DNA of 64,000 nucleotides from Phototrophicaceae bacterium (GTDB lineage Bacteria > Chloroflexota > Anaerolineae > Aggregatilineales > Phototrophicaceae). The position numbers were made by a program, and so were the translations under genes. The stretch's first letter is position 1; each line of letters opens with the position of its first letter. A model generated the notes under the pieces. The model saw only the letters and a program-made list of their open reading frames with translations, was not told the origin of the DNA and did not search any database. Shown piece after piece: positions 1,587 to 36,438 of the stretch. Location of the stretch: positions 2,704,623 through 2,768,622 of the forward strand of contig OZ244875.1 of assembly GCA_965221275.1 (NCBI GenBank), read 5' to 3'.

Positions 1587-3995
1587 TCAAGCGCGGGCGG
1601 GCTGACCCCGCAATAGCCGCGAAAGAATCTTGTAATTGTTAGCGCGCTCGGGCGCATCGATCCGCTCATCGCCATGTATGTGCCGCAAGCAGCGCACGAG
1701 ATGAGACTCGATGACGTGTTGGCTGCGCGTGCGAGATTTGAGCCAGCTCTCGCCCCAGATCTCGGCGGCGACGCTGATGCAGTGCAGCGCTTGTTCGTTG
1801 AGCGCCTGGTTGATCGTTTTCGGCAGCAACTCGTCGATGAGATGCCAGCGCATATCTTGCCATTTGCCAGCCGCGATAATGGCGCCGGCAAACAGCACCA
1901 CATTGCGCCAGCGCGCATAATCATGACAGAGCAAGGCGACGATATTCTGTGGGAAGATCCAGCCTTCCGGGCTCGCTGCTTTTAGCCCTGCTGGCATCTT
2001 GCACTCGTCATAAAATTCCAGCAAGGCACAAGCCGCCAGGTATTCTTGAATAGTCAAGTGTGGGAAGCGATACAAGTTGGGCGCATCGGAAACCAGGATG
2101 CCATTGCGTGTGGCGAGGTACTCAAGCACGTCTTCGATGCCGGCTCCCAAGCCGCCGCCAAACGCTTGCTGCTCAATCAATTTGTCCAAGAGCCGCGCCC
2201 GATCGATGATGGTCGGGTAACGCTGGTAGCTCTGCTGCTCCGAATGTAGCTCAAAGGCGATCAATTTCAGCGCCGCCCGCATCCGATCCAAATTGATATT
2301 GGACAATTTTTCATGCAGTTTATCGGCTGGCGAGGGGATATTCCAACGATCGAGCAGCTCAACCGTGTGCTCGTAAAGCTCGGCGCGCTTGTCTGGCAAT
2401 TGACGATAATCCTCATGGATCAAGGTGAGCAGCGCCAACATCAATGGCTGTCGCGCCAGGGGCCACAATGCCCTGTTCTCTCTGATCGCTTTGTAAAGAT
2501 CAGCCACCATCAAGCCAGCCTGTTTGCTCGCCACTGCTCGCCCACCAAGCACGCTGGGGCGATTCTCCGCGACATTGGCATACCAGCGCTCTATGTATGT
2601 TTTCACTTGTTGCCAGGTGAAAGGCGCTAATTCAGCCGAGGCGAAGCGATCTGACAAGTGCCAACGTGAATCATGCCGATACGCATAAGTGCGGCTGGTG
2701 ACAATGATGCGGCAATTGGGAAAACGATCCGCCCAATTCTCGATAATCCGCTGCAGGATGATGCGGTCGCTCTCTTCATAAACTTCATCCAAGCCATCCA
2801 AGACCAGCAGACTACCATGCGTCGGCACATCGGTTTGGGTCAGATATGCTTCCAGATGCGGTCCCAGATTGCCGGTGGCTTCTTTAATGTAATTCAGCAG
2901 ATGTTCTGATGAACTTTCGTTCAGCGATTTGGGGAAAAGCTCTTGCCGGTTGGCGAAATCGCGCAGGCTGACATAGATCGGCAAGATGGGTCCATGGATC
3001 CAGGAGGCGCCCAACATCTCCAACCCTTTGACTTTGTCCTGCTTTTCAGCCCGCGGGTCACAGGCATAGGCGAGGGCGGTGACGATAAAGCGGCAAAGCG
3101 AACTCTTTCCCGTTCCGGCGGCCCCCGTGATGACGATCAGCGAGTGCGCGGAGATGACTTCAAAGACCGATTCGCGCACATAGCCCATATCTTTTTCAAT
3201 CGCTTGATAACGCCGCGCGTTCAGCTCTTCAATACCGACGGTGTGGAACTGCCGCTGGTCAGTCCAAATATCAACGGGTGTGTACAGTTGGTGTAACATG
3301 GCGGGTGTATGATGCTGCGAGGCGGGATGAATGACCGTGGTGGGTATGTTCCACTCGGTGCGCACCGCGGCAAGATAATTTTTGAGCGCCGATTTGTTGC
3401 CGTGATAATGCTCGGCGACAATATTGACATCTTGCCCGGCGAATATGACATGCCCCCCCGCCGAGATGGTCCCCGCTTGTACGCGCACGGCTGAGGGATA
3501 ATCCCCATATTCGCGCATCGCTTCCAGCAGGTTGCGGGCGAATTGTATCGCGCGTTGCCCCTGATTCGCCGAGCCATCCAAACCGCCAGTGGCAACGATC
3601 AACCAATCCAAGCCCACCAACTCATCGGCATTGAGCCGCTCCGGTAGCAGCTCGTCACCAGCCAGCTCCTCGGCAGTGCGGTTGTAATTTCGGTCTCGAT
3701 AGATCTCGGTCAGGCGTTTGCTCAACGGCGCGCAATAACGAAATTTCTTCAGCAACCGCCGCAGCAAAGTCAGCTTGGTGCTCGGGTTGGGCATCACCGG
3801 CGTGAACACCATCATGACCAGTTTTTGATAAGGTGAAGCCAGGGTGGATTGGTCTGCTTGTCGTTTAAGGGTGGACCAATTACTCTGGACAAATTTGCGC
3901 CAGGCAGCCGGAGATGCGATCATCAGTTGGCTGGGGCCGGCGCGGTTTTTTTTTGTGATAGCATCGCTAGCATGTCGTCGGGCGCGCTGATTCAT
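1587..3995 (-). CDS. Stand-alone NACHT/STAND P-loop NTPase with an unassigned N-terminal region of about 290 aa and a helical C-terminal region. Last gene of the TIR/STAND operon.
   Basis: 802 aa. Walker A GAAGTGKS (nt 3102-3125, verified on the reverse complement). Walker B LLVLDGLDEV. Pre-NACHT segment KNYLAAVRTEW...LYTPVDIW. N-terminal GHVIFAGQD (nt 3429-3455) is shared with the upstream small protein. No recognisable repeat sensor. Confidence 0.85.
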   Translation of the reverse strand: MNQRARRHASDAITKKNRAGPSQLMIASPAAWRKFVQSNWSTLKRQADQSTLASPYQKLVMMVFTPVMPNPSTKLTLLRRLLKKFRYCAPLSKRLTEIYRDRNYNRTAEELAGDELLPERLNADELVGLDWLIVATGGLDGSANQGQRAIQFARNLLEAMREYGDYPSAVRVQAGTISAGGHVIFAGQDVNIVAEHYHGNKSALKNYLAAVRTEWNIPTTVIHPASQHHTPAMLHQLYTPVDIWTDQRQFHTVGIEELNARRYQAIEKDMGYVRESVFEVISAHSLIVITGAAGTGKSSLCRFIVTALAYACDPRAEKQDKVKGLEMLGASWIHGPILPIYVSLRDFANRQELFPKSLNESSSEHLLNYIKEATGNLGPHLEAYLTQTDVPTHGSLLVLDGLDEVYEESDRIILQRIIENWADRFPNCRIIVTSRTYAYRHDSRWHLSDRFASAELAPFTWQQVKTYIERWYANVAENRPSVLGGRAVASKQAGLMVADLYKAIRENRALWPLARQPLMLALLTLIHEDYRQLPDKRAELYEHTVELLDRWNIPSPADKLHEKLSNINLDRMRAALKLIAFELHSEQQSYQRYPTIIDRARLLDKLIEQQAFGGGLGAGIEDVLEYLATRNGILVSDAPNLYRFPHLTIQEYLAACALLEFYDECKMPAGLKAASPEGWIFPQNIVALLCHDYARWRNVVLFAGAIIAAGKWQDMRWHLIDELLPKTINQALNEQALHCISVAAEIWGESWLKSRTRSQHVIESHLVRCLRHIHGDERIDAPERANNYKILSRLLRGQPARA

Positions 3996-4046: not shown

Positions 4047-4595
4047 TCAGATCTTCTTGGGCGATCGATGCCGCGAAATCGCCTCGTGAAAATTGAAAGC
4101 GACTTCCCCAGCGCTGGCGAGAATAGCGCCAACCAGCGGCTGATCAAATAGCGTCATGGCGGCGGCGGTCAAGGCGGGGGAGAAACGCAAAAGCGATTTC
4201 GCCGCGCGCACCAGAAGGCGAGTATTCGGCTTCTTGCTGGTGGTCAATTGCTGCTCAACCGTCTGCAGGTCGTGCATGGCGGCTTCCTGAGTTTCGCTAG
4301 GGAGTTCTTCTTTTTTGATCGTGTCTTCGATATTACGAATACACTGGATCATCATATCCAATTCTTGTGGCGTTGTCTCGACGCCGCCGACAGTGACAGT
4401 CTGGGTCGTATGCTGCGCTACATCGCCGCCCGTCTGCACTTTGACTTGGCCATCCCGCCCGGCAAAAACCACGTGCCCAGTGACGGATAAATGGTCGATT
4501 TCGATGTTCATATCACGGCGGTATGGCATAGTTTCTTCCAGGCTACGTTCGCTTGAGTCCATTGTCATCATCCCTTCTTTTCTGCCTGCGAGCAA
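4047..4595 (-). CDS. Small hypothetical protein (about 170-182 aa), adaptor-like. It has an N-terminal Gly/Val-rich beta-like segment, an acidic helical middle and a moderately hydrophobic C-terminus.
   Basis: The ORF lies between the TIR-FGE gene (29-nt gap) and the NACHT gene (51-nt gap) on the same strand. It contains GHVVFAGRD (nt 4452-4478). The start is uncertain: TTG at 4595, or ATG at 4562 preceded by GAAGGG-N9. No family recognised. Confidence 0.55.
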   Translation of the reverse strand: MLAGRKEGMMTMDSSERSLEETMPYRRDMNIEIDHLSVTGHVVFAGRDGQVKVQTGGDVAQHTTQTVTVGGVETTPQELDMMIQCIRNIEDTIKKEELPSETQEAAMHDLQTVEQQLTTSKKPNTRLLVRAAKSLLRFSPALTAAAMTLFDQPLVGAILASAGEVAFNFHEAISRHRSPKKI

Positions 4596-4624: not shown

Positions 4625-6343
4625 CTAGGTCAATCCAACCAGCCGAATGCCAATTGAAGAATAGCGCACCTTGGGATCCAAATAATAGCGGATGGAGGTC
4701 TGGGCGCGGTCACAGGTACTGACGAAACTGCCCCCAGCCACCGCCCGTCGATAATCCCGCCCTTCTTCCGTCGCATCGGCGGTATTCAGGGTCCATTCCC
4801 AGATATTGCCTGCCATGTCAAATACGCCATAGGGGCTGACGCCTTTGTGATAACGGTCGACCGGCGTTGTCGTTCTCAAGCCCGTTTCTATTGTGTTGCA
4901 ATGTTCCTCGTGATATTCGTCTCCCCAAGGGAAATAGCGATCATCGTCCCCTTTGGCGGCGCGCTGCCATTGCGCAATCGTCGGCAGGGTGATCTTCATC
5001 TTGAGTTGATGTGCCAGCCAGTTGGCGAATGCCATCGCTTCATACCAGTTGACATTCTCCCGCGGATGCTTGCCGCCGCTGAAATGCGACTTAGACGGAC
5101 CTTTGCTCGACTTAAACCAGCGCTGGGCACGAGCGGAAAATTCCCACCAGCGCGGATTGCGGTAGCCATCTTCGGCTTGTACGAAAATGGCGAATTGCGC
5201 GTTAGTCACTGGATACTTACTCATAACAAAGTTGTCAACCTGCTCGGTCCTCTCGCCGAAGTCTTCATCTGCTCCCACAATGCTGGATACTGTGACGGTG
5301 CCGTGGGGAATGTCACACCATTTTAGCATAGGCAGAATTTCTTTGGTGCTCAACGTTGAATTATTGTCAAAGATATGGTTCGTCGGCGTCGCGCCGATTG
5401 CCTCGAACCTTGGCGGCTGCTTATGCCCAGGTCTGGGATTGTTCGCTGACGGGTTTGCTGGTGGTCTCACAGGGCTTTGGCTGACATCTTGCTTGTCTGC
5501 ATCCAAAATTGAGTCTGCTCGTGGCGGGGCATTTCGCTGGTTCGTGCTCCCATTTGGTGGATTTTCACCGGTAGCAGGCAGGCTGGAATCGCAGAAGCGG
5601 CGCAAGTTTTGGGGATCGTAATCGCCAAATTCTTTTCTGAACTCCGCCAGCGCTTCGCAAGCCATCTGCCGGGTACTCGCAAAATTGAAAAGCGCCACAA
5701 TATGCTCATACTCGCGTTCCACTTCGCGGTCTTGTGTCCGCTCTTTCAAAGCTGACTCAGCGATACGCAGCAGCTTGTCCAAGCGAATAAACTTTGATTG
5801 ATAGCCGCTGGCTCGCGCCCGCTTCAACAAAAGCACGGCATTATCGTAGTCGCCTTGTTCCAGTGCCTCGATGGCGTTGCTGACCCATTGAACGGGGTTG
5901 TCTTTGACAATGGGGTCGCTTTGGGGGGCCGCGCTGGCGATAGGCGGCGCGGTTTGGGCAGCGCGTTGCCGTTCCACGATCAAGATGGCATTCAACAATT
6001 GTGAGACATTTTCCACTGTCAAATTGTCGGATAGATCCACATATTGCCAGTCTTTCATGTTGTCTGGCAGCACCGTATCTTGGTTGATCAGCACCGGTAT
6101 GATGTCTCGCTTCAGCCGGTGGGCAATATCCAATTCGCGGCGACAATAGAGCGAGGCGATAGAATCCGGCGATAGCAGGTAGATGAAAACATCGCACCAA
6201 TCGAGCCGGCGCAGTATCTCTTTCCACCAATCTTGGCCCGCGTAAAGCCGCTGATCATACCAGACATCATGCGCGTGCAAGGTCTCGATGATGCGGATAC
6301 AATAAGGCTTGTCGACCCGCGCATAACTCACAAAGATTTTCAT
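4625..6343 (-). CDS. TIR domain protein fused to a C-terminal FGE-sulfatase (SUMF1/formylglycine-generating-enzyme-like) domain
   Basis: N-terminus MKIFVSYARVDKPY...VFIYLLSPDSIASLYCRRELDIA is a TIR_2-type fold with the conserved Glu (codon 6134-6136). A Pro/Asn-rich linker follows. C-terminus has FVMSKYPVTNAQF, HPRENVNWYEAMAFANWL, GVFDMAGNIWEWT and GGSFVS...IGIRLV, typical of the FGE-sulfatase fold. I moved the start to ATG 6343, which overlaps the upstream stop as ATGA. The track ORF extends to 6385. Confidence 0.85.
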   Translation of the reverse strand: MKIFVSYARVDKPYCIRIIETLHAHDVWYDQRLYAGQDWWKEILRRLDWCDVFIYLLSPDSIASLYCRRELDIAHRLKRDIIPVLINQDTVLPDNMKDWQYVDLSDNLTVENVSQLLNAILIVERQRAAQTAPPIASAAPQSDPIVKDNPVQWVSNAIEALEQGDYDNAVLLLKRARASGYQSKFIRLDKLLRIAESALKERTQDREVEREYEHIVALFNFASTRQMACEALAEFRKEFGDYDPQNLRRFCDSSLPATGENPPNGSTNQRNAPPRADSILDADKQDVSQSPVRPPANPSANNPRPGHKQPPRFEAIGATPTNHIFDNNSTLSTKEILPMLKWCDIPHGTVTVSSIVGADEDFGERTEQVDNFVMSKYPVTNAQFAIFVQAEDGYRNPRWWEFSARAQRWFKSSKGPSKSHFSGGKHPRENVNWYEAMAFANWLAHQLKMKITLPTIAQWQRAAKGDDDRYFPWGDEYHEEHCNTIETGLRTTTPVDRYHKGVSPYGVFDMAGNIWEWTLNTADATEEGRDYRRAVAGGSFVSTCDRAQTSIRYYLDPKVRYSSIGIRLVGLT

Positions 6344-9300
6344 AGTGCGTTCTGCTTTTCCGCCGCGAGCAGTAGAGCGCGGCATGCATCGCTGTCGATA
6401 CGTCGTAAGGCCTGGATCGCCAAATCCCGCAGTGATTCCTCCTCCCAGGAAGGTTTGGCATCATCGTGAAGCAATTGTTGCAAAAGCGGCAAATCGGTCT
6501 CGTCCATATCTGGCGCCAATTGCTTCATAGCATACCAGCGCAGGTGTAGATAACCATCGCTGAGCGCATATTCGAGCTGGCTACGGACATCAGTTGGCTT
6601 GATCTGGCAGATGGCTTTGAGAGCGGCAAGGCGCACAAAACCATCCGGGTCGCGTTTTAGCGTTTCACTGAGCATGGGGATCGCTCCCTCATATTGCAAT
6701 TCGCCGAGGGCTTCGACCGTGGCTTCCCGCACAGCTTTTTGCGAGCTTTGCAGCAAGGGCATCATTCGATCGACACTGTCTACAGCGCCCAGCTCGACTA
6801 GGGAGCGAACTACCGCGACCTGTACAATCCAGCTTGGGTCATTGAGTCCTTCGCTCAAATATGGGATTGCCTCTCGATTTCGCAGCATCGCCAAGGCTTC
6901 CGCCACTGCCCAGCGCACGCTCCAATTGTCATCGCTCAAGCTGCTGCACAGCAAACGCATAATTCGCAGGTTGTCCCTTCCACGCAGGTACTTGGCGAAC
7001 TTGCGCAAGAATTTGGCTGCTTTTTGCGTCCTGCCCCAATCATCATCGCGCAACACTTCCAAGGTTCGGGTGATCTTTTCCTCGTCGCTGAATGCATCTC
7101 TGGATTGTTCGGTGTCTCTACTGCTTTCTGCATCGGACGCTGAAATCGATTCCTCCAGGCGTGGCTCTGCATTTGCGATGGCATCCAAGGCTGCTCGCGC
7201 ATGTCGGCTGAGACTGATGTCATCATCGCTGGCTCGCCTTCCATCATCAAGCAGTTGTCTCAGTTCGGCCGTCGCCGGCTGATATTGCGCATCGCCTAAA
7301 ATCGAAATTGCCGCGGCGACTGTTCTGGCATTATCGCTATCGAGCAAATCGATCAAGGCTTCGTAATCCACCGCGGTCGCCGTTTTGAGCAGATCAATAA
7401 TTGCAGCGACAATTTCTTGATCGGGGTCGGACAAGGCGGCGATGACCGCTTTTTGGGCGGCGGGTTCTCCCTCGAATTGGCAGAGCATTTCATAGGCAGC
7501 CAACCGCAGGCTTTTGTCATCATCGTTCGTCGCTTCAAGCAAGAGTGGTAGAATGGCGGCGGTCGGATAGTCAATCAGACGGTTGAGCGCGCGGTGACGC
7601 TGTTGCCAATCGCTATGGTGCAACTGCTCTAGCAATTCAACCGGCAGAGCGCTGGTAGGCGCAGCTGCCACCGAGGATTTGTCGAAGAGCGGCTCTCCAT
7701 AAACGAGCGCTTCGAGATTGCTACCGGCGATGATGGTTGGCTCGGGAGGGTCCTCCAGCACGCGCTCTATGGCGCTGAGCAATTGCTGAAAGCCCTCGCG
7801 ATTTGGCAAATGCTTGATCGCCCCAGCCAGCAAATGCTGAAGCTCGTTGCTGTTTTTCTTGCCTAAGAGCGCCATTTGAATCATATCGGGCAAGTCCACC
7901 TGCTGCGCGGCGACTCGCGCCAGCCCAAGGGCAATATCGCTTTCCGCCGTATTGACGACAATCTCATAAAACTCCGGATTCAGCGTCAGCCGCCCGGCAT
8001 CGGCAAGAGCGAGCAGCTGGCTAGATACCAGCCGTTTCTGCTCGGCGAGTGCCTCGATAACAACACTGCGATGCTGCGGATTATCCTGCGACCAATGCAG
8101 CACACGGGTCAAAATATCGGAATAAGCGTATTTCATCAGCGCCAGCACGATCTCGCCCCGGTCATCATCGTGCCAATCTTCTTCCAGGCAATTGAGTAAG
8201 GGCAGAGCGGTCGGCAAGTATTTGAGTTCGCCCAAGATCCAGATCGCATTGCGCCGCAGCCGCAGATCTTGATCTTGCGACAGCTTTAGCAAATAAGCCA
8301 CCGATAGCGACAGCGGGTAGCCCGCCAGTTGATCGATCTCGCTTGCCGGCGAATTGCGGTCGATCTCCGCCACGGTCTCGATGAAGTCGATCGGCAATTC
8401 CAGCGGCAGGGCACGGATTTCATGCCAGAGCCATAATTGCTTTGGATTGTCATAATGACCCAGTTGTTGAATCAGTAAATCGGCAGTGATGTCCGGCTTT
8501 GGCAAATTACGGACTGCTTCACGAAAGGCGTTTTGCGCTGTGGGGTTTTGCGCGCACAATTGCACTAGCTTGGCAATCAGCCTCTGTTGATAACTGCCGT
8601 AGAGCTCAGGATGTCGCTGCAAACACATATTGGCAACAAAGGGGTCGATATCGACGATCCTGTCAATGGCGCGCAGGCGATTCTCCTCCGTCAGCGAATC
8701 GACCACCAGCAGCGCCAAACTGTCCCATTTCTGGCGCCGACGCCCGCCTAGCGCCGAGAATTCGGGACTGGTCAGATATTTTGCCATGCCATCTTTTTTG
8801 AGATTCTCGATGGCGAGATAGCTTTGGAAGATCTCGGATGTGAAATGGAGTTTTTCATGTTCTATGGAGACAATCCCCAACTCGAGCGCGCAATCGATGA
8901 TGCCGGCGTCCGCCCCTTGTAAGCTGGCGGAATTCCGCGGCAAGAAGCGATGATTGTCTTGCAACATCATCGACCAGGCAAGGGCTTGCAAGAATTTCAG
9001 CACTTGCTCGGTCCGCAAACCCCTAAACGCGCTGGGCAGCTGCCGCGAGCGCATAGCGATCAGTGCGGGCAGCGGATTTTTCTGCCATTGGCTGAAGGCT
9101 AAAGAGCGATCGTTCGCTAGCAACTCCAAGCCGATTGACAAATAATCCAGTTGGCTATTCTCAATCAGCGGTCTTTTTTGACGCAATAGCTGTCGGAAGC
9201 TGTTTTGTTGTTCCAGGGTGAGGTAGCCGCTGGCAAACTTCTGTGCTAGCGCGGTAGTCAGCGCCTTTGTTTCCAGCACTGGCAGGCTTGGCTCGGCATT

Positions 9301-10335
9301 TGTCTGCCCGGTGGATAGAATCAGAAATTTGTGCTTGGGGCTAGCGTCAATCCAATTGGAAACGCTGCTGACCAAGGCTGGATAATCAGCGCAGAAGACA
9401 TTCCAATTGTCCAGCACAAACAAAGCGCGATGCGTCTCCAACCAATGTTGCCAGAAAGAAAGCAGGGACCACTGCGCTTCGATGAAGGCCTCGAGTGAAT
9501 GGTGCTGCTCATCCCAGTGCGCCAAGTCAAGCCAGATCGGCAGGGCGGCTCCCTCGTCGTGTATGGCAGCTTGCGCCTGTGCCAGCGCCAACAAGCGGGC
9601 GAAGAAAGTCTTGCCGCTGCCGCTATCGCCGCGGATGATGAATTGTGGCTCAGCCTCCGCCCATTGCAGCAGGTCTTCCACTGGCAGAGCATTGCCCGCT
9701 TTCAAGCCCGTGAAATCCCAGCCCTGCAAGAATCGGGTTTGATACAAGCGCGGACGTATGTCCTTGTTGCCGGATATATCGCTGTTCCGCATAGTTGCCC
9801 ATGAAGTTGGCATCTTCGCCAGCGACAGCTCGGTCTCCTCGATGAAACCGCGCAGATAGTCGAGGCGTTCGCCCGTCTGCAAAACCGATGCCGATTCCGG
9901 TATCCGGCTCAGCAAATTCTCCACGCTATGATCATCGGGATTCTCAAACCAGCGGCGAAAGTCGATCCAGTCGTCAAAGGGGAAATCGGCGATCAGTTCG
10001 GTCGAGAAATCGCGGGGGATAACCGCGGTAATCGCTATATCACGAGCTTTGAAGTGGTCAAATTCGGCGCGGCAATAAGGCGAACGCAGGTAATCATCCG
10101 ATACGACCACAATGGCGCCAGTCGCCTGGTTTCGCAGCTGGCGGATCTTGCCCTCCCAATCTTCGTTAGGTCCTATTTCGAAGCGATCGAGCCAGACATT
10201 GCGATAGTAGCGAAGCAACAGGTTGGCGAGCCGGAAGGCGTAGCTCATATCGATGTTATGATAGGAAAGATAAACCAAGCTCTCGTTGATCACGGAACCT
10301 CTTGCGGTTGGACTATTCGATTTCCTATGTTCCAA
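6340..10335 (-). CDS. TIR - STAND/NACHT-like P-loop NTPase - HEAT-repeat protein (1331 aa). First gene of the operon.
   Basis: TIR: LVYLSYHNID...AIVVVSDDYLRSPYCRAEF, with the conserved Glu codon at 10063-10065. Walker A GDSGSGKT (nt 9607-9630, verified). Walker-B-like ALFVLDNW. The C-terminal ~650 aa carry many PBS-lyase/HEAT-like repeats (e.g. DDNWSVRWAVAEALAMLRNREAIPYLSEGLNDPSWIVQVAVVRSLVELG). The track start is TTG 10335. GTG at 10293 preceded by AAGAGG is an alternative. Confidence 0.85.
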   Translation of the reverse strand: MEHRKSNSPTARGSVINESLVYLSYHNIDMSYAFRLANLLLRYYRNVWLDRFEIGPNEDWEGKIRQLRNQATGAIVVVSDDYLRSPYCRAEFDHFKARDIAITAVIPRDFSTELIADFPFDDWIDFRRWFENPDDHSVENLLSRIPESASVLQTGERLDYLRGFIEETELSLAKMPTSWATMRNSDISGNKDIRPRLYQTRFLQGWDFTGLKAGNALPVEDLLQWAEAEPQFIIRGDSGSGKTFFARLLALAQAQAAIHDEGAALPIWLDLAHWDEQHHSLEAFIEAQWSLLSFWQHWLETHRALFVLDNWNVFCADYPALVSSVSNWIDASPKHKFLILSTGQTNAEPSLPVLETKALTTALAQKFASGYLTLEQQNSFRQLLRQKRPLIENSQLDYLSIGLELLANDRSLAFSQWQKNPLPALIAMRSRQLPSAFRGLRTEQVLKFLQALAWSMMLQDNHRFLPRNSASLQGADAGIIDCALELGIVSIEHEKLHFTSEIFQSYLAIENLKKDGMAKYLTSPEFSALGGRRRQKWDSLALLVVDSLTEENRLRAIDRIVDIDPFVANMCLQRHPELYGSYQQRLIAKLVQLCAQNPTAQNAFREAVRNLPKPDITADLLIQQLGHYDNPKQLWLWHEIRALPLELPIDFIETVAEIDRNSPASEIDQLAGYPLSLSVAYLLKLSQDQDLRLRRNAIWILGELKYLPTALPLLNCLEEDWHDDDRGEIVLALMKYAYSDILTRVLHWSQDNPQHRSVVIEALAEQKRLVSSQLLALADAGRLTLNPEFYEIVVNTAESDIALGLARVAAQQVDLPDMIQMALLGKKNSNELQHLLAGAIKHLPNREGFQQLLSAIERVLEDPPEPTIIAGSNLEALVYGEPLFDKSSVAAAPTSALPVELLEQLHHSDWQQRHRALNRLIDYPTAAILPLLLEATNDDDKSLRLAAYEMLCQFEGEPAAQKAVIAALSDPDQEIVAAIIDLLKTATAVDYEALIDLLDSDNARTVAAAISILGDAQYQPATAELRQLLDDGRRASDDDISLSRHARAALDAIANAEPRLEESISASDAESSRDTEQSRDAFSDEEKITRTLEVLRDDDWGRTQKAAKFLRKFAKYLRGRDNLRIMRLLCSSLSDDNWSVRWAVAEALAMLRNREAIPYLSEGLNDPSWIVQVAVVRSLVELGAVDSVDRMMPLLQSSQKAVREATVEALGELQYEGAIPMLSETLKRDPDGFVRLAALKAICQIKPTDVRSQLEYALSDGYLHLRWYAMKQLAPDMDETDLPLLQQLLHDDAKPSWEEESLRDLAIQALRRIDSDACRALLLAAEKQNAL

Positions 10336-17169: not shown

Positions 17170-18438
17170 TCATCTATTCTCCTGCCGCGCCGCAAAATTC
17201 CAAGCTAGTGGCGGGGGCCAATTGTCATCATATACTTCAGCTTCGGTAACCAGGAACATTGCCAAGGCGCTGCCCGTCGCGCAGTCGCCATCGAAGGGCG
17301 ATTCTTCTTGACAAGTCAACCTGCCGGTCAAACCAGGATACTCTTCGGTGTTGGCTAGGGCTTCACGAATGGCGCTGCGGCCGATGATCAAACTCCCATC
17401 TGCTAACTCGATCGCAGCGGCGGTGACTGCATCAAGCAGCAAGTTGGTCGCGTCATAAGCGTGGGCATGGTAGCCGCCGGGCGGCGTCCCGCCGATCTCT
17501 TCTTCCCATGCCATCAGCAATTCTTCATATTCCTCACCGGTCACCAGCGGACCTGAAATATAAATGCCGATGGCGGCCTCGCCCGTATTTTCGGGGAAGC
17601 TCGCCACAAAGCTTGCTCCACCAGCGATAATCGTGCTGCTCTCCAACTCTGATATTTGCTGCATCTGTGCCGTGAAAAAATTGGATTCTGGCTCAAACAA
17701 GGGCAGGTAAATGACATCGGGAGCGTAGACAGCGATCTCGGTCAGAATCGAGGTCATATCAGTATCGCCTTTATTGACCGCGCCCTCGAAAACAACTTCC
17801 CCACCCAGATCGGTGAAGGTATCCGCCACTACGCGAGAAAGCCCTTCGGTGTATGGATCGCCATCATGCACTGTCGCCAAACTTGCCGCCTCCAAGACAT
17901 TTACCGCGAACTCGGCATTGCGCATCCCTTCCATCAAGCCGTTGTGGCTGGTGCGAAAATAGCCGGGCAGATGGGAACCGCCTGCGTCAATATTCGCATT
18001 TGTCAGGCTGGGCGAGGTATTCGATGGGGCGATCATCACCATGCGGGCCTCGCTAATGATGGGCATGGCGCCTTGTGCCGCGCTGGAGCAACTGGTGCCG
18101 ATGACGCCAATAATGCTTTCGTCGGCAGACAGCCGTTGAGCTGCCGCTTGCCCGCCTTCGGCTGAACACAGGCTGTCTTCAAGCACAAGCTCGATGTCGT
18201 GCCCCAGCAGCGATTCACCGCGATCGAGTATCGCCAGCTCCACACCTCCAAGCGCATCTTCACCAAGATAGGACACCGCGCCAGAAACAGCCAACATGGC
18301 GCCGATCGCTATCGGATCCTCCGGTCCCACTTCGATGCAGCCAAAGCTGTCTTCGCACGATTGTTGTGCCAGGAGTGGCAAGCAGCACAGGAAGAGCAAG
18401 CTCAAAATCACCAACAAGCGGATCAAATATCTGGTCAC
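17170..18438 (-). CDS. ABC transporter substrate-binding protein, LivK/type-1 periplasmic-binding fold (paralog 2)
   Basis: 422 aa. Has a signal peptide. IAIGAMLAVSGAVSYLGED..., GVIGTSCSSAAQGA. Clearly paralogous to the neighbouring gene along its whole length. Confidence 0.85.
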   Translation of the reverse strand: MTRYLIRLLVILSLLFLCCLPLLAQQSCEDSFGCIEVGPEDPIAIGAMLAVSGAVSYLGEDALGGVELAILDRGESLLGHDIELVLEDSLCSAEGGQAAAQRLSADESIIGVIGTSCSSAAQGAMPIISEARMVMIAPSNTSPSLTNANIDAGGSHLPGYFRTSHNGLMEGMRNAEFAVNVLEAASLATVHDGDPYTEGLSRVVADTFTDLGGEVVFEGAVNKGDTDMTSILTEIAVYAPDVIYLPLFEPESNFFTAQMQQISELESSTIIAGGASFVASFPENTGEAAIGIYISGPLVTGEEYEELLMAWEEEIGGTPPGGYHAHAYDATNLLLDAVTAAAIELADGSLIIGRSAIREALANTEEYPGLTGRLTCQEESPFDGDCATGSALAMFLVTEAEVYDDNWPPPLAWNFAARQENR

Positions 18439-18634: not shown

Positions 18635-19906
18635 CTAGCCTTCATCTTCCATCATAGACATGGACAGATCCCAAACAACTGGCGGGGGCCAATTCCCTTC
18701 GTTGACTTCGGCTTCCGTCAGCTCGAAGACAGCCAAAGCCGTACCAGTGGCACAGTCACCAGCATATGGTGATTCTTCCTGACAGGTTAGCGAGCCGGTC
18801 AAACCTTGGTATTCTTCCACCGCTGCCAAGGCATCGCGCAATGCTTGGCGGCCGATGCTGGTGCTGCCGTCATCGGCGTCCTGCGCCACAGCTTCTACCG
18901 CATCCAGCAGCATGTTGGTCGCGTCATAGGAGTGCGCGTGGAAACCGCTGGGCGGCACGCCACCAAATTCATCGTCCCATTTGACCAGGAATTCTTCATA
19001 AGACTCGCCAGTCACGGAGGGACCTGACATGAAGATGCCCAAAGCAGCAGCGCCGGTGTTTTCGGGGAAGCCCGCTACCAGGCTACCGTCAGCCGTCATC
19101 ATGATTGTGTTTTCCAAACCGGGGGTAGTGACCAATTGCGCGGCGATGAAGTTGGCTTCCGGCTCGAACAGCGGGAAGTAAACAACATCCGGTCCGCTGG
19201 CCGCGATTTCTGTCAGGATAGCCGTCATATCGGTATCGCCCTTGCTGACCGCACCCTCGAAGACGACATCGCCGCCCAATTCGGCAAAAGTATCCGCCAT
19301 GACATTGGCAAGACCCTCAGTATAAGGATCGCCATCATGAATGGTCGCCAAGCTTCCAGCTTGCAGGACTTCTTGGGCGAACTGCGCTGCCATCGCACCC
19401 TGGAAGAGGTCGTTGTGGCCCGTGCGGAAGTAACCCGGCAGGTATGCGCCACCGGCATCGGTGTCATCATTGGTCAGGCTGGGTGATGTATTGGAGGGCG
19501 AAATCATCAACATGCCAGCATCGCTGATAATGGGCAAAGCACCCTGCGCGGCGCCGGAACAGTTGGTGCCAACCACGCCGACAATCGTCTCGTCCGCGGC
19601 AATCCGTTGGGCAGCGGATTGACCACCATCAGCAGTACACAGGCTATCTTCCACCACCAAAATGATTTCACGACCCAAAAGCATGCCGTCGCGATCGCCG
19701 ATAGCAATCTCTATACCACCTTGGGAGTCTTCGCCAAGGAAAGAGGTCGCGCCGGAAACCGTGAGCATAGCACCGACTACGATGGGGTCATCGGGACCAA
19801 GTTCGACACAGCCCAACGCATCCATGCACTCCATTTGCGCAAAAGCTGGAACGCTAAAGGCAAGAAGAAGGCTCAGGACAGTGAGTACGAGTAACAAACG
19901 TTTCAT
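18635..19906 (-). CDS. ABC transporter substrate-binding protein, LivK/type-1 periplasmic-binding fold (paralog 1)
   Basis: 423 aa. Signal peptide MKRLLLVLTVLSLLLAFSVPAFA. IVVGAMLTVSGATSFLGED, GVVGTNCSGAAQGA. Confidence 0.85.
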   Translation of the reverse strand: MKRLLLVLTVLSLLLAFSVPAFAQMECMDALGCVELGPDDPIVVGAMLTVSGATSFLGEDSQGGIEIAIGDRDGMLLGREIILVVEDSLCTADGGQSAAQRIAADETIVGVVGTNCSGAAQGALPIISDAGMLMISPSNTSPSLTNDDTDAGGAYLPGYFRTGHNDLFQGAMAAQFAQEVLQAGSLATIHDGDPYTEGLANVMADTFAELGGDVVFEGAVSKGDTDMTAILTEIAASGPDVVYFPLFEPEANFIAAQLVTTPGLENTIMMTADGSLVAGFPENTGAAALGIFMSGPSVTGESYEEFLVKWDDEFGGVPPSGFHAHSYDATNMLLDAVEAVAQDADDGSTSIGRQALRDALAAVEEYQGLTGSLTCQEESPYAGDCATGTALAVFELTEAEVNEGNWPPPVVWDLSMSMMEDEG

Positions 19907-24043: not shown

Positions 24044-25489
24044 ATGTCAGTTATTCCTAAGGACTTCACCGGTTATATCGCTGTGGTCAAGCGGGACTGC
24101 GCCACTTGTAGACTTATCGAACCCGTGCTGCGGGACCTGCAACGGAAGCTGAATCTGCGCCTCTATTCTCAAGACGATCCCAGTTTTCCGGCGGGCATGA
24201 AAACTGTGTTCGACGACCGCGAGCTGGAAATCTCCTATCGTCTCGATATCGAGATTGTGCCGACACTGATTCGAGTGGAAGCTGGACTGGAGGCGGAACG
24301 CCTGCTCGGCTGGCGGCGGGATGAGTGGCGCCGCTTGACTGAGTTGCCTCGGTTGGGCGCTGGCTTACCGTGCTCAAGCCCGGGCTGTGGTTCAAAGTCC
24401 TGCGACCCAGGTATGCCGGAAAAATTGGCATTTGAGTTCGGTCATACAACTTTGCAAGCCCGTCGCATTGAATTGGCGAGCCAGCAAGATGCTCAGGAAC
24501 TGGCTCATGAGCGCGGCTGGTCGGATGGCTTGCCAATCGTACCGCCTACCGAAGAGCGTGTCTTGAAAATGCTGGGCGGGACAGATCGCTTGCCGTCCGA
24601 AATCCTGGGCATTGTCCCGCCGGATAATGCCCCCTGCACGGTGGAAAAGGTCGCGATCAATGCGGTCATGGCGGGCTGCAAACCGGAATACCTGCCGGTG
24701 GTATTGGCGGCGGTGGAAGCAGCTTGTCTCGATGAATTTTGCATGCATGGTGTGTTGGCAACCACATACTTCGCAGCGCCCATCGTTATTGTCAACGGAC
24801 CCATCGTCAAACAGATCGGCATGAACACGGCGCACAATGTATTGGGGCAGGGCAATCGCGCCAACTCGACGATTGGGCGGGCGCTGCAGTTGGTGATTCG
24901 CAATGTTGGTGGCGGTAAACCGGGAGGCGTTGATCGCGCCACATTAGGACAACCTGGCAAACTTGGCTTCTGTTTTGCCGAGCGAGAGCAGGATTCTTAT
25001 TGGGATTCGCTGGCGGTGGAGCGCGGATTCACCTCACAAGATTCGACTGTGACACTTTTCGCCGGCGGTGGCGTACATCCCATCGGCGATCAGAAATCGC
25101 GCGAGCCGGAGTCTCTGACACGCAGCCTGGCTTTGACATTGCGCACCATATACCACAGCAAAATATATGGCGCCGCCGATGCGATGCTGGTTATTTCGCC
25201 GGAGCACATGCGTGTCTTCCGCGAAGCGGGCTGGTCCAAAGCGCGTTTTCGTGAAGTGCTGGATGCACATTTGACGGTTGCTGGGCGAGAGATCCTGCAA
25301 GGTGTTGATGGAATTGCCGAGGGCATGCCGGCGCAGCTCGCCGATAAACGATTGTCCAAGTTTCGTCCCGGTGGGCTGCTGATTGTGCATGCTGGCGGCG
25401 GGGCTGGTATGTGGTCGGCGGTCATCACTGGCTGGGCGGCCAGCGGCGCAAAAGGCAGTGTACCCGTCACTGTCGCCATCAAGTCTTGA
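24044..25489 (+). CDS. Thioredoxin-fold (CxxC) N-terminal domain fused to an uncharacterised ~350-aa C-terminal domain
   Basis: 481 aa. N-terminus YIAVVKRDCATCRLIEPVL...IEIVPTLI is thioredoxin-like. I cannot assign the C-terminal domain (GWSDGLPIVPPTEERVLKMLGG..., NRANSTIGRALQLVIRNVGGGKPGG). There is a 22-nt gap to the downstream UGSC gene. Confidence 0.7.
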   Translation: MSVIPKDFTGYIAVVKRDCATCRLIEPVLRDLQRKLNLRLYSQDDPSFPAGMKTVFDDRELEISYRLDIEIVPTLIRVEAGLEAERLLGWRRDEWRRLTELPRLGAGLPCSSPGCGSKSCDPGMPEKLAFEFGHTTLQARRIELASQQDAQELAHERGWSDGLPIVPPTEERVLKMLGGTDRLPSEILGIVPPDNAPCTVEKVAINAVMAGCKPEYLPVVLAAVEAACLDEFCMHGVLATTYFAAPIVIVNGPIVKQIGMNTAHNVLGQGNRANSTIGRALQLVIRNVGGGKPGGVDRATLGQPGKLGFCFAEREQDSYWDSLAVERGFTSQDSTVTLFAGGGVHPIGDQKSREPESLTRSLALTLRTIYHSKIYGAADAMLVISPEHMRVFREAGWSKARFREVLDAHLTVAGREILQGVDGIAEGMPAQLADKRLSKFRPGGLLIVHAGGGAGMWSAVITGWAASGAKGSVPVTVAIKS

Positions 25490-35193: not shown

Positions 35194-36438
35194 CTAGCGG
35201 CGGAGGATTCTGTTGACAATGCCGAACCAGAAGGGAGCGCCTTGCGCTGTTGCAATCACTGTCGCGGCAATGCCTAAGAACTTCATCACCAGCAAGCCCA
35301 GCCAACCTTCGGGATTGTTGTCTGGGAAATAATTCCACAAATTATTGGGGTCGCTGCGGGCGAGATCATTTGCGGGCTGGTCGCCCACATTCTGGAAGCT
35401 CCAGCCAATCGGCAAGCTGAGATCCTGGAGATCTTGCAACTGATTGGCGATGGCTGCGCCCGATTCCACCGCATCCCCGATCGGGTCCTCCAACTCCGCC
35501 TGACTGGCGGTGAATTCGTCGTCAGACCCCGTCGCATTACCTAGCTCTGTCTCCAGGTCTCCACTTTGCACCGAATAATTGAGCGCGCCGCTGATTTGCT
35601 CGCGTCGGGCGGGGTCTTCCCACAATGTACGGGCGATCTGCAGCGTATCGATGTTGATAGCCAGCGCAAAACACAGCGCCACCACAATCGACAAGTTTTT
35701 CATTTTAGAGGAGTAAGCCGCACTGGCGCGGCTCATCGAATTGTTGAACCAGTGTTCCAAATTGCTGCGCGCGACTTCCGCATTCTCCGCGCTTGCCACG
35801 ACAGTAGAGAGAGCGCTACGTAGATTGAGATTCTGAATCTGCAGGATGCCAGCCATCAGCGAGACATTCCTGGTTGGCTCCAAGCCGAGCAGGCTGACTT
35901 CCTCATCAATCTGATTCAGTATATCGGTGAGAGCGCTGCGGTAACGGCGGTCTTGTACATAGGGCAGGGCTTTTCGCAGTTCCGCCATTCCTTGACCCGT
36001 GCTGATAACGCGGTTCACCATCACGCGCAATCCGCGCCGTTCCGGTCCAGAGGGCATGCCATCGATGACATTCAAGAGCGCGCCGAATAATTGCTGGTCC
36101 GATTCTGCCTTGATAGTCGCCAACACGACATCAACAAAAGTATGCCTGTCGATCCAGTCCACCGAACCGATCGACCCTTTGGCGACTTTCTCCGCATCTG
36201 CCCGCGAGATGCGTTGTGTCGGGGCGATTGGATCCGCTTTCACCAGCTGAATCAAAGGATGAGTATATACTTTCGCCCGAATCACCGGGTCTTCGATGAT
36301 TTGGTCGAGGGTGTTGCGCAGGTTTTTCGCGCGCAGCCTTGCCGCCCTAGCAATCAAGGAGTTGACCTCTGTCACCAAGATGCTCAGCAAGATGAAGACA
36401 AAGATTAAGCCAACGATGACTTGAACAATGGCAGCCAA
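35194..36438 (-). CDS. Hypothetical membrane protein (N- and C-terminal TM helices, large helical middle)
   Basis: 414-aa ORF. MAAIVQVIVGLIFVFILLSILV at the N-terminus and GWLGLLVMKFLGIAATVIATAQGAPFWF at the C-terminus. No family recognised. Confidence 0.5.
   Translation of the reverse strand: MAAIVQVIVGLIFVFILLSILVTEVNSLIARAARLRAKNLRNTLDQIIEDPVIRAKVYTHPLIQLVKADPIAPTQRISRADAEKVAKGSIGSVDWIDRHTFVDVVLATIKAESDQQLFGALLNVIDGMPSGPERRGLRVMVNRVISTGQGMAELRKALPYVQDRRYRSALTDILNQIDEEVSLLGLEPTRNVSLMAGILQIQNLNLRSALSTVVASAENAEVARSNLEHWFNNSMSRASAAYSSKMKNLSIVVALCFALAINIDTLQIARTLWEDPARREQISGALNYSVQSGDLETELGNATGSDDEFTASQAELEDPIGDAVESGAAIANQLQDLQDLSLPIGWSFQNVGDQPANDLARSDPNNLWNYFPDNNPEGWLGLLVMKFLGIAATVIATAQGAPFWFGIVNRILRR

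What the first reader, a model, noticed from the sequence alone, without database searches (positions are those of the whole stretch)
4625..6343. TIR domain fused directly to an FGE-sulfatase (SUMF1-like) domain without an intervening NTPase
Seen: the N-terminal ~125 aa are TIR-like. A TPR-like helix and a Pro/Asn-rich low-complexity linker follow. The C-terminal ~235 aa carry FGE-sulfatase fold motifs (YPVTNAQF, NVNWYEAMAFANWL, MAGNIWEWT, GGSF...IGIRLV). Established: this fold includes formylglycine-generating enzymes and EgtB, and also many non-catalytic ligand-binding versions. Inference: here it more likely acts as a ligand or invader sensor, or as a targeting module that gates the TIR. 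The protein may depend on the neighbouring STAND ATPases for oligomerisation. I am not aware of experimental work on this architecture.
Basis: partly seen in the sequence, partly recalled or inferred. Interest (0 to 1): 0.65.

Follow-up and report, generated by a model that had tools for sequence, protein, structure and literature searches.

The report
TIR–lectin-fold protein paired with NLR
A filamentous Chloroflexota (Anaerolineae) bacterium encodes a cytoplasmic protein that joins a probable NAD-cleaving TIR domain to a non-enzymatic, lectin-like FGE-fold domain. It is usually co-transcribed with a TIR-NACHT-HEAT "NLR-like" partner, so it is an untested variant of a class of bacterial immune/cell-death modules that has already been predicted.

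Summary
Window 4625-6343 (-) encodes a 572-aa protein with five regions:
- TIR_2 domain (aa 3-116, E 2.5e-22)
- short spacer
- four-helix domain (aa 150-251)
- hypervariable Pro/Asn-rich disordered linker (aa 252-336)
- FGE-sulfatase domain (aa 343-569, E 4.5e-41)

The TIR catalytic Glu (E70) is kept in 78 of 80 divergent relatives. The FGE Cu-binding Cys pair is absent, there is no DinB/His-triad domain, and there is no DGR template repeat. It is therefore not an FGE or EgtB enzyme and not a DGR target.

The architecture is not rare. At least 80 clusters at 50% identity share it, and all those that carry a taxon label are Anaerolineae.

In 31 of 46 metagenomic loci, a TIR-NACHT-HEAT gene ends just upstream on the same strand. 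In the window its stop codon overlaps the TIR-FGE start (ATGA).

In the window's clade, a four-gene cassette sits in conserved housekeeping synteny: TIR-NACHT-HEAT, TIR-FGE, a ~180-aa protein and an 802-aa NACHT protein. The TIR and FGE domains evolve about as slowly as ABC-transporter ATPases. This argues against a fast-diversifying invader sensor.

The function is inferred: ligand- or NLR-driven clustering of TIR domains that activates NAD+ cleavage. Kaur/Aravind predicted the general concept (lectin-like FGS sensor plus TIR), but I found no experimental work. I rate it a new variant of a known kind, of moderate interest.

The parts
4625..6343 (-). Gene B: the 572-aa TIR / helical / linker / FGE-fold protein (stop codon at 4625-4627).
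   Evidence: ORF and translation. Pfam TIR_2 plus FGE-sulfatase. More than 120 full-length orthologue clusters at 63-71% identity. The start is conserved.
5969..6343 (-). TIR domain, aa 1-125. The putative catalytic Glu70 codon is at 6134-6136, in the motif YCRRELDIA.
   Evidence: Pfam TIR_2, E 2.5e-22. E70 is invariant in 25 of 25 orthologues and present in 78 of 80 distant relatives. Foldseek hits to the SPARTA TIR-APAZ and TRR-2 TIRs. pLDDT is about 95.
5591..5896 (-). Conserved four-helix middle domain, aa 150-251 (a TPR-like hairpin plus a long helical hairpin, ending in the DYDP motif).
   Evidence: Helices 150-162, 166-178, 188-219 and 222-239 have pLDDT above 90. Y212 and D243-P244 are at least 90% conserved across 80 relatives. 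Orthologues are 72% identical here.
5336..5590 (-). Hypervariable, disordered Pro/Asn/Ser-rich linker, aa 252-336.
   Evidence: 14% mean pairwise identity and a length of 52-116 aa among orthologues. pLDDT is about 40. dN is 0.9-0.95, against about 0.1 for the flanking domains.
4628..5335 (-). FGE-sulfatase (C-type-lectin-like) domain, aa 337-572. It lacks the FGE Cys pair.
   Evidence: Pfam E 4.5e-41. Sequence and fold matches to ToxD, pFGE, EgtB, FGE and TvpA in the PDB. The Cys pair is missing. Orthologues are 81% identical.
6340..10335 (-). Gene A: the TIR-NACHT-HEAT protein (about 1331 aa) and conserved upstream partner. Its TGA stop overlaps the ATG of gene B.
   Evidence: Pfam TIR_2, NACHT and HEAT_2. 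ATGA overlap. A homologous gene lies immediately upstream in 31 of 46 metagenomic loci and in L001-L003, L083, L084 and L086.
4047..4595 (-). Gene C: a protein of about 170-182 aa with no Pfam match. It carries an N-terminal beta-strand motif (LSVTGHVVFAGRDGQVKV) that gene D shares.
   Evidence: No Pfam hit and a weak PADLOC PDC-M14B hit. Conserved in the four-gene cassettes. Motif alignment.
1587..3995 (-). Gene D: the 802-aa NACHT protein, the slowest-evolving gene of the cassette. Its pre-NACHT segment carries the shared motif (ISAGGHVIFAGQDVNIV).
   Evidence: Pfam NACHT, E 2.8e-12. 83-88% identical to its orthologues, against 65-72% for the flanking GSDH gene. Motif.

Best explanation
What it is (shown): gene B encodes a soluble cytoplasmic protein of three ordered parts. 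An N-terminal TIR domain keeps the catalytic glutamate of NAD+-cleaving TIRs. A conserved four-helix domain follows. A long disordered tether then leads to a C-terminal FGE-fold (C-type-lectin-like) domain, which has lost the FGE copper-binding cysteine pair and therefore binds rather than catalyses. Gene B is the downstream, translationally coupled partner of a TIR-NACHT-HEAT NLR-like ATPase. In this clade the pair is followed by a small protein and a second NACHT protein.

How it most likely works (inferred): the two-gene module behaves like a paired NLR. The faster-evolving NACHT-HEAT protein senses a trigger and oligomerises using ATP. Its N-terminal TIRs then nucleate a TIR assembly that recruits the TIR of gene B by TIR-TIR contacts, possibly helped by the helical domain. 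The lectin-like domain of gene B binds a conserved macromolecule or metabolite. That binding either supplies a second input or anchors and concentrates the enzyme. The clustered TIRs form composite active sites and cleave NAD+, either depleting it or making ADP-ribose-derived signals. The affected cell of the filament then stops growing or dies. Where gene B stands alone, a multivalent ligand bound by the lectin-like domain would do the clustering itself.
For: Domains and catalytic residues:
- Pfam domain calls.
- E70 is present in 78 of 80 relatives.
- The Cys pair is absent.
- NCBIfam scores for the enzyme families are far below their cut-offs.
- The confident AlphaFold2 model shows three ordered domains and a disordered tether.
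- Foldseek matches the FGE-fold family, including the non-catalytic pFGE and the ligand-binding TvpA, and matches an NADase TIR from SPARTA.
- No signal peptide or transmembrane segment is predicted.

Linkage to gene A:
- The stop and start codons overlap as ATGA.
- The same pairing occurs in 31 of 46 independent metagenomic loci.
- It recurs in at least five different flanking contexts: L083, L084, L086, L090 and L142/L143.
- Both TIRs keep the Glu.
- Gene A has an intact Walker A motif, GSGKT.
- Gene A evolves fastest (33-55% identity) and the TIR and FGE domains of gene B evolve slowly. This fits gene A as the specific sensor and gene B as a conserved co-component.

Published context:
- FGS/FGE domains are predicted to act as intracellular lectin-like sensors next to TIR and STAND domains in multicellular bacteria (PMC7159879, PMC8195603).
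- FGE-sulfatase-like sensors occur on defence STANDs (PMC13581612).
- SpbK is a TIR NADase characterised together with its interaction with a phage protein (PMC12847820 abstract).
Against: - No biochemical step has been shown. NADase activity, TIR-TIR hetero-assembly and any ligand are all inferences.
- About one third of the loci lack the NLR partner, so the partner is not obligatory.
- The cassette is vertically inherited in housekeeping synteny and under strong purifying selection. This is atypical for phage-defence genes and would fit a non-immune role equally well.
- PADLOC defence models give only weak generic TIR hits.
- dS is saturated, so the dN/dS values are only rough.
Confidence: 0.5

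Rival explanations
1. Autonomous single-protein sensor-effector. The lectin-like domain binds a multivalent invader structure such as a capsid, a tail or glycosylated or modified DNA. The tethered TIRs cluster and deplete NAD+, with no need for the neighbouring STAND proteins, which would be separate systems that happen to sit alongside.
For: Solitary TIR-helical-FGE genes sit among unrelated housekeeping genes in L004, L006, L085 and L088. 15 of 46 metagenomic loci have no gene A upstream. The helical domain could provide self-association. SpbK is a precedent for a single TIR defence protein that works through a phage protein (PMC12847820 abstract).
Against: Two thirds of the loci keep the A-B pair, often with overlapping stop and start codons, across 30-70% sequence divergence and in different flanks. 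The FGE domain shows no sign of diversifying selection.
Confidence: 0.2
2. Not anti-phage immunity. The operon would be a lineage-core regulated cell-death, differentiation or NAD-signalling system of filamentous Anaerolineae. The FGE-fold domain would recognise a conserved endogenous ligand, such as a cell-envelope glycan precursor or a guarded host protein.
For: The flanks are identical in the window, L001, L002, L003 and L089: branched-chain amino-acid ABC transporter, APH and EamA on one side, GSDH on the other. The dN of the TIR domain (0.08), the FGE domain (0.10) and the NACHT802 protein (0.09) equals that of the ABC ATPases (0.08). The rest of the window is housekeeping: RNase J, MetK and M16 peptidases. 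No DGR, mobile-element gene or known defence gene lies nearby.
Against: TIR-NACHT-repeat architectures are overwhelmingly immune or conflict-related in characterised cases (my own knowledge). The cassette also occurs in different genomic contexts, once beside Prim-Pol and a DNA methyltransferase (L086), so it does move. Gene A evolves fast, as a sensor in conflict would.
Confidence: 0.2
3. The C-terminal domain is a real enzyme: an FGE, an EgtB/OvoA-type sulfoxide synthase, or a ToxD- or PvdO-like oxidase. The TIR domain would be only a regulatory or scaffolding appendage.
For: NCBI names the orthologues 'SUMF1/EgtB/PvdO family nonheme iron enzyme'. The best PDB match is ToxD, a biosynthetic protein. 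One Cys (C544) is invariant within the orthologue group.
Against: The first FGE Cys is deleted, and C544 is Cys in only 6 of 80 relatives. There is no DinB domain or His triad, because the N-terminus is a TIR domain. The bit scores are 84, 60, 54 and 42, against cut-offs of 400, 360, 420 and 500, for OvoA, EgtB, SenA and PvdO. No sulfatase, ergothioneine or pyoverdine genes appear in any locus.
Confidence: 0.04

Closest known systems
Conflict systems with FGS (FGE-sulfatase, C-type-lectin-fold) domains in multicellular bacteria, as predicted by Kaur, Burroughs, Iyer and Aravind (eLife 2020 PMC7159879; eLife 2021 PMC8195603)
   Same: The FGS domain is always C-terminal, with an effector or signalling domain (TIR among them) N-terminal to it. 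It is associated with STAND NTPases, enriched in filamentous or multicellular bacteria, and predicted to be an intracellular lectin-like binder.
   Different: In those systems the FGS domain is usually fused to vWA or STAND modules and is often diversified by a DGR. Here the TIR domain is fused to the FGS domain through a helical domain and a tether, with no NTPase in the polypeptide and no DGR. The FGS domain is strongly conserved, and the NTPase comes from a separate TIR-NACHT-HEAT gene. The passages I read did not mention this two-gene pair.
DGR-diversified CLec target proteins carrying TIR or CHAT domains (Thiohalocapsa PB-PSB1; PNAS 2024 PMC10907252) and TvpA (PDB 2y3c)
   Same: An FGE/CLec fold used as a ligand-binding module. 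TIR domains occur in the same proteins or loci. The fold matches TvpA.
   Different: The window has no template repeat and no sign of a reverse-transcriptase/DGR cassette. The region equivalent to the variable region (aa 517-556) is 85-95% conserved among orthologues.
Bacterial NLR-like defence proteins (bNACHT, Avs and STANDs with FGE-sulfatase-like sensors; Nature 2026 PMC13581612)
   Same: The logic of effector, NTPase and sensor. Gene A is a classic TIR-NACHT-repeat protein. FGE-sulfatase-like domains are recognised there as one type of STAND sensor.
   Different: Gene B has no NTPase. The system splits into two TIR-bearing polypeptides, each with its own C-terminal binding domain. PADLOC finds no defined system.
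Single-polypeptide TIR NADase defence proteins, for example SpbK of Bacillus subtilis (PMC12847820), and TIR effectors that act by oligomerising (TIR-STING PMC9402430; SPARTA TIR-APAZ)
   Same: A TIR domain with the catalytic Glu is joined to a non-enzymatic sensor or assembly domain. Activation by induced oligomerisation is the established mechanism for this class. The fold matches the SPARTA TIR.
   Different: The sensor domains are unrelated: coiled-coil, STING and APAZ/Ago in those proteins, FGE fold here. None of them has a paired TIR-NLR partner.
Formylglycine-generating enzyme (SUMF1) and its inactive paralogue pFGE (SUMF2, PDB 1y4j)
   Same: The same fold. Foldseek E-values are 1e-15 to 1e-16, and TM-score normalised to the target is 0.58-0.66.
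   Different: The protein lacks the Cys pair, as pFGE does. It is cytoplasmic, fused to a TIR domain, and has no sulfatase context.

Membership tests
TIR-domain NAD+ hydrolases/cyclases | Match to a TIR fold or profile | tested here: met
   Pfam TIR_2, E 2.5e-22, 80 bits against a cut-off of 28. Foldseek matches SPARTA TIR-APAZ 8qlp and the TRR-2 TIR 4w8g, with TM-score 0.77 normalised to the target.
TIR-domain NAD+ hydrolases/cyclases | Conserved catalytic glutamate in the 'S..C..E' region | tested here: met
   E70 (SLYCRRELDIA) is invariant in 25 orthologues and present in 78 of 80 relatives. That this Glu is the catalytic one rests on my knowledge of plant and bacterial TIR NADases.
TIR-domain NAD+ hydrolases/cyclases | Measured NAD+ cleavage | not testable with these tools
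   This needs an enzyme assay.
Formylglycine-generating enzyme (FGE/SUMF1) | FGE-sulfatase fold | tested here: met
   Pfam PF03781, E 4.5e-41. PDB sequence and fold hits.
Formylglycine-generating enzyme (FGE/SUMF1) | Two active-site cysteines (GGS-x-x-C-H-x-S-x-C) that bind Cu(I) | tested here: not met
   The profile alignment to T. curvata FGE 6s07 pairs 'GGSFLcheSYCNRYR' with 'GGSFV---sscdraqt', so the first Cys falls in a deletion. The second position (C544) is Cys in only 6 of 80 relatives.
Formylglycine-generating enzyme (FGE/SUMF1) | Sulfatase or other metabolic gene context | tested here: not met
   No sulfatase gene appears in the window or in 10 orthologous loci.
EgtB/OvoA/SenA sulfoxide and selenoxide synthases | N-terminal DinB-like domain with a 3-His iron site, and a score above the family cut-off | tested here: not met
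   The N-terminus is a TIR domain plus a helical domain. NCBIfam scores are 84, 60 and 54 bits, against cut-offs of 400, 360 and 420.
DGR variable (target) proteins with a CLec/FGS fold | A variable region at the 3' end, with a matching template repeat and a reverse transcriptase | tested here: not met
   No repeat of the gene's 3' end occurs anywhere in the 64-kb window. The C-terminal blocks are 85-98% conserved among orthologues. A template repeat or reverse transcriptase elsewhere in the genome cannot be excluded.
STAND/NLR-centred conflict systems with FGS sensors (Kaur et al. 2020/2021) | C-terminal FGS domain with an effector domain N-terminal to it | tested here: met
   The order TIR ... 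FGE holds in all 79 relatives that have both domains.
STAND/NLR-centred conflict systems with FGS sensors (Kaur et al. 2020/2021) | A STAND NTPase in the same polypeptide | tested here: not met
   Gene B has no P-loop domain. Instead, a NACHT gene lies immediately upstream in 31 of 46 loci.
STAND/NLR-centred conflict systems with FGS sensors (Kaur et al. 2020/2021) | Occurrence in multicellular or filamentous bacteria | tested here: inconclusive
   Named relatives are Anaerolineae, Anaerolineales, Aggregatilineales and Chloroflexota MAGs. That these organisms are filamentous is my own knowledge and was not verified for these MAGs.
Thoeris (ThsB TIR plus ThsA) | A ThsB-type TIR with a ThsA (SIR2/SLOG or Macro) partner gene | tested here: not met
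   Only weak ThsB hits (E 1e-5 to 1e-2). No ThsA-like gene is present in the operon.

The most novel reading that the evidence does not exclude
The A-B(-C-D) cassette is not a phage-defence island. It would be a lineage-core, vertically inherited 'paired NLR' that monitors a conserved endogenous ligand through the invariant lectin-like domain (a guard or self-surveillance role, or developmental cell death along the filament). That would make it a bacterial counterpart of paired TIR-NLRs in plants, with a lectin-bearing TIR co-receptor and a possibly amyloid-like or adaptor motif linking the small protein to the second NACHT.
Probability: 0.2. Interest if true: 0.7.

Novelty: new variant of a known kind. 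Interest (0 to 1): 0.45.

Why it matters
TIR domains and NLR-like ATPases are shared by bacterial, plant and animal immunity. How bacterial TIRs are switched on by sensor domains other than nucleotide receptors is known for only a few cases.

This family offers a compact, abundant and sequence-conserved test case. A lectin-fold binding domain is tethered to a TIR domain, and it usually works beside a TIR-NACHT-HEAT partner. Four questions become testable:
- whether an FGE-fold domain can act as an intracellular receptor;
- what that domain binds;
- whether two different TIR proteins co-assemble in bacteria as paired plant NLRs do;
- why such a module is kept as a slowly evolving core gene set in filamentous Chloroflexota.

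On the practical side, public annotation names these proteins 'SUMF1/EgtB/PvdO family nonheme iron enzyme', which this analysis indicates is misleading.

Tried and rejected
1. DGR target. No template-like repeat occurs in the window and the VR-equivalent region is conserved. Rejected.
2. Genuine FGE, EgtB, OvoA or PvdO enzyme. Rejected on the Cys pair, the missing DinB domain and the sub-threshold NCBIfam scores.
3. Known defence system. PADLOC gives only weak generic hits to ThsB, SEFIR, TIR and HEAT models.
4. First AlphaFold2 run on the shallow orthologue alignment A1. The FGE domain came out at pLDDT below 50 and was unusable. The run on the diverse alignment A2 gave pLDDT 85.
5. Genome-contig scan with the full-length alignment. 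The search patterns came from the FGE domain, so most of the 80 loci were unrelated FGE-domain proteins. Only L003, L004 and L006 matched over both the TIR and FGE regions (L005 and L007 were FGE-only fragments on Anaerolineae contigs).
6. PDB sequence search for the 802-aa NACHT protein. No hit. For gene A, only designed HEAT (alphaRep) proteins matched.
7. Shared domain between gene B and genes A or D beyond the TIR. None was found.
8. Promoter and terminator scan. The counts were not above the shuffled expectation. The best -35/-10 match lies just upstream of gene A, so the single-operon reading rests mainly on the short or overlapping intergenic gaps.
9. dN/dS. dS is saturated (above 1), so only the dN values are used for comparison.
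10. Literature on ToxD. Nothing I found defined catalytic residues that could be checked here.
Full report
**1. Observation**

The minus-strand ORF 4625-6385 translates to a protein whose conserved start is the ATG at 6343 (MKIFVSYARVDK...). All 24 aligned orthologues begin MK(I/L)F. This ATG overlaps the TGA stop of the upstream gene (cta-TGA / ATG-aaa, an ATGA overlap).

Pfam assigns two domains:
- TIR_2 at aa 3-116, E 2.5e-22.
- FGE-sulfatase at aa 343-569, E 4.5e-41.

**2. Anatomy**

An alignment of 25 orthologues (A1) and an AlphaFold2 model built on 80 diverse relatives (mean pLDDT 85) show five regions.

| Region | Residues | Model | Mean pairwise identity among orthologues |
|---|---|---|---|
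| TIR | 1-125 | pLDDT ~95 | 82% |
| Spacer | 126-149 | disordered | 23% |
| Four-helix domain | 150-251 | pLDDT >90 | 72% |
| Pro/Asn/Ser-rich linker | 252-336 | pLDDT ~40 | 14%; length 52-116 aa |
| FGE-fold domain | 337-572 | pLDDT >95 | 81%; no indels |

The four-helix domain has helices at 150-162, 166-178, 188-219 and 222-239.

Hydropathy finds no signal peptide or transmembrane segment, so the protein is cytoplasmic.

Foldseek matches the C-terminal domain to ToxD, the inactive FGE paralogue pFGE, CalU17, EgtB, FGE, the DGR variable protein TvpA, PvdO and PorK. It matches the N-terminal domain to the SPARTA TIR-APAZ and Hydra TRR-2 TIRs.

**3. Catalytic competence**

*TIR domain.* The glutamate in SLYCRRELDIA (E70) is invariant among orthologues and present in 78 of 80 relatives. 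That this is the catalytic Glu of TIR NADases is my own knowledge. The TIR domain is therefore probably enzymatic.

*FGE-fold domain.* In the profile alignment to the copper enzyme from T. curvata (PDB 6s07), 'GGSFLcheSYCNRYR' pairs with 'GGSFV---sscdraqt'. The first active-site Cys falls in a deletion. Only the position of the second is a Cys (C544). Across the wider family that position is Cys in just 6 of 80 sequences.

There is no DinB/His-triad domain. NCBIfam scores against the enzyme families are far below the cut-offs:

| Family | Bit score | Cut-off |
|---|---|---|
| OvoA | 84 | 400 |
| EgtB | 60 | 360 |
| SenA | 54 | 420 |
| PvdO | 42 | 500 |

No repeat of the gene's 3' end exists in the window. 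The region equivalent to a DGR variable region is 85-98% conserved among orthologues.

The domain is therefore a non-catalytic binding version of the fold, and it is not DGR-diversified.

**4. How common the architecture is, and in which organisms**

A word-indexed search returned at least 120 clusters (at 90% identity) of full-length orthologues, 63-71% identical. All carry PF13676 plus PF03781. Where a source names them, they are Chloroflexi or Chloroflexota MAGs called 'SUMF1/EgtB/PvdO family nonheme iron enzyme'.

An exhaustive HMMER search of 1.84 billion representatives at 50% identity found 1,492 proteins at E below 1e-30. Among the best 150, most are proteins of about 480-575 aa that match in two stretches: TIR plus helical domain (1-253) and FGE (336-569).

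I aligned 80 of these (A2). Pfam finds TIR_2 in 80 of 80 and FGE-sulfatase in 79 of 80.

Named members are Anaerolineae, Anaerolineales or Aggregatilineales.

TIR / helical domain / FGE is thus a large and coherent family. The helical domain (Y212 and the DYDP motif at 241-244) is an integral part of it.

**5. Genomic context**

In the window the gene order on the minus strand is:
- A: TIR-NACHT-HEAT, 6340-10335.
- B: TIR-FGE, 4625-6343.
- C: 182 aa, no Pfam match, 4047-4595.
- D: 802-aa NACHT protein, 1587-3995.

The gaps are -4, about 30 and about 50 bp.

*Same cassette, same flanks.* The cassette sits between the same genes in L001 (a 4.36-Mb contig), L002, L003 (an Anaerolineae MAG) and L089. 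Upstream are the branched-chain amino-acid ABC transporter, APH and EamA. Downstream is GSDH, followed in L001 and L002 by a phosphomannose isomerase gene.

*Same cassette, unrelated flanks.* It recurs in L083, L090, L142 and L143.

*A-B pair only.* The pair alone is seen in L084, and in L086 next to a Prim-Pol and a DNA methyltransferase.

*Gene B alone.* Solitary gene B occurs in L004, L085, L006 and L088.

*Quantification.* I scanned metagenome contigs with an alignment of the TIR plus helical region (A3) and searched the flanks by tblastn.
- Of 46 loci with at least 700 bp upstream, 31 have a TIR-NACHT-HEAT-type gene ending just upstream on the same strand.
- Of 32 loci with at least 1.5 kb downstream, 4 have genes C and D.
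- Some contigs may be redundant.

The conserved functional unit is therefore A plus B. Genes C and D are an extension found in the window's wider clade.

The rest of the window is housekeeping: RNase J, SAM synthetase, M16 peptidases and ABC transporters. It is not a defence island.

**6. Evolutionary tempo**

These are window-versus-L001 values.

| Gene or domain | dN |
|---|---|
| ABC ATPases | 0.08 |
| Gene B, TIR domain | 0.08 |
| Gene B, FGE domain | 0.10 |
| Gene D | 0.09 |
| Gene C | 0.12 |
| GSDH | 0.23 |
| Gene B, helical domain | 0.26 |
| APH | 0.35 |
| Gene A | 0.35 |
| Gene B, linker | 0.95 |

dS is saturated, so the ratios are only indicative.

The two globular end domains of gene B, and gene D, are as constrained as core transporter ATPases. 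Gene A is the fast-evolving member.

Between subfamilies, the FGE domain varies mainly in blocks 347-366, 407-426 and 517-556. The last block corresponds to the ligand-binding face of CLec-fold variable proteins (my own knowledge). This suggests that each subfamily binds its own stable ligand.

**7. Mechanism**

*Shown.* The domain composition, the retained TIR Glu, the lost FGE active site, the cytoplasmic location, the disordered tether, and the conserved translational coupling to a TIR-NACHT-HEAT gene with an intact Walker A motif (GSGKT) and its own TIR Glu.

*Inferred.* The module works as a paired NLR. Gene A senses a trigger through its HEAT repeats and oligomerises. Its TIRs seed an assembly that recruits the TIR of gene B. 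The lectin-like domain of gene B binds a conserved macromolecule or metabolite, which gives a second input or concentrates the enzyme. The clustered TIRs cleave NAD+, and growth arrest or death of that cell follows. Solitary copies of gene B would be clustered directly by a multivalent ligand.

I put about 0.5 on this. The main alternatives are:
- autonomous action (0.2);
- a non-immune, lineage-core cell-death or signalling role with an endogenous ligand (0.2);
- a real enzyme (0.04).

**8. Comparison with the literature**

- Kaur et al. (PMC7159879; PMC8195603) described FGS domains as C-terminal modules. These are fused to or encoded next to many domains, including TIR and STAND NTPases, in multicellular bacteria. 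The authors proposed that FGS domains are intracellular lectin-like sensors of invaders, often diversified by DGRs.
- Doré et al. (PMC10907252) found DGR-diversified CLec targets carrying TIR and CHAT domains.
- A 2026 survey lists FGE-sulfatase-like sensors on defence STANDs (PMC13581612).
- None of the passages I read describes the TIR / helical / tether / FGE protein paired with a TIR-NACHT-HEAT gene.
- Full-text searches for 'FGE-sulfatase' plus 'TIR domain' found nothing experimental.

The finding is therefore a new variant of a predicted kind rather than a new kind.

**9. Verdict**

A non-catalytic binding domain and a STAND partner both hold. A rapidly adapting 'invader sensor' is doubtful. 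The architecture is neither rare nor conceptually unprecedented. Interest is 0.45.

Noticed in passing
window 4431-4499 (-) in gene C (aa 33-55) and window 3411-3488 (-) in gene D (aa 170-195): The small protein and the 802-aa NACHT protein share a short beta-strand-like motif: 'LSVTGHVVFAGRDGQVKV' and 'ISAGGHVIFAGQDVNIV'. The pairwise BLASTP E-value is 0.002. The motif is conserved in both proteins in cassettes down to about 50% identity (L001, L002, L083). It resembles the logic of effector/NLR pairs linked by a shared adaptor or amyloid-signalling (BASS) motif (bioRxiv 10.1101/2020.01.06.895854). Here, however, the motif is N-terminal in the small protein and internal (pre-NACHT) in the NLR.
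   Followed up: partly
window 1587-3995 (-): The NACHT802 protein is the most conserved gene of the region. It is 83-88% identical to its orthologues, against 65-72% for the neighbouring GSDH enzyme and 55% for the other NACHT protein. It has no PDB sequence hit. Its roughly 270-aa N-terminal region matches no Pfam family. This is unusual for an NLR-like protein.
   Followed up: partly
window 17170-18438 (-) and 18635-19906 (-): Two tandem paralogous genes encode periplasmic binding proteins (Peripla_BP_6) of the branched-chain amino-acid ABC transporter. They appear as direct repeats D1-D3, at 71-72% nucleotide identity and 1471-bp spacing.
   Followed up: no
L086 1681-7822: In one distant relative (an Anaerolineales MAG; gene B 39% identical by phmmer, 36% by tblastn), the TIR-NACHT-HEAT plus TIR-FGE pair lies next to a Prim-Pol/PriCT gene and an N6_N4 DNA methyltransferase. 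This looks like a mobile-element or defence-island context, unlike the housekeeping context of the window.
   Followed up: no
L088 9746-9937: Directly downstream of a solitary TIR-FGE gene (33% identical by phmmer, 31% by tblastn), a second ORF begins with a TIR N-terminus that is 39% identical to aa 1-61. The contig ends there. TIR-TIR gene pairs may exist in other arrangements.
   Followed up: no
proteins P0124 (1025 aa, Anaerolineae) and P0203 (1773 aa, Candidatus Parabeggiatoa): These are larger relatives that match the query in 4 and 7 separate stretches, so multi-copy or extended TIR/FGE architectures exist. P0203 comes from another filamentous lineage.
   Followed up: no
window 24044-25489 (+), 35194-36438 (-), 40646-42517 (+): Three long ORFs (481, 414 and 623 aa) have no Pfam match at E below 1e-5.
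   Followed up: no
public annotation of orthologues (P0018, P0034, P0054, P0140 and others): NCBI names the family 'SUMF1/EgtB/PvdO family nonheme iron enzyme'. The missing Cys pair, the missing DinB domain and the N-terminal TIR domain indicate that this name is misleading.
   Followed up: yes
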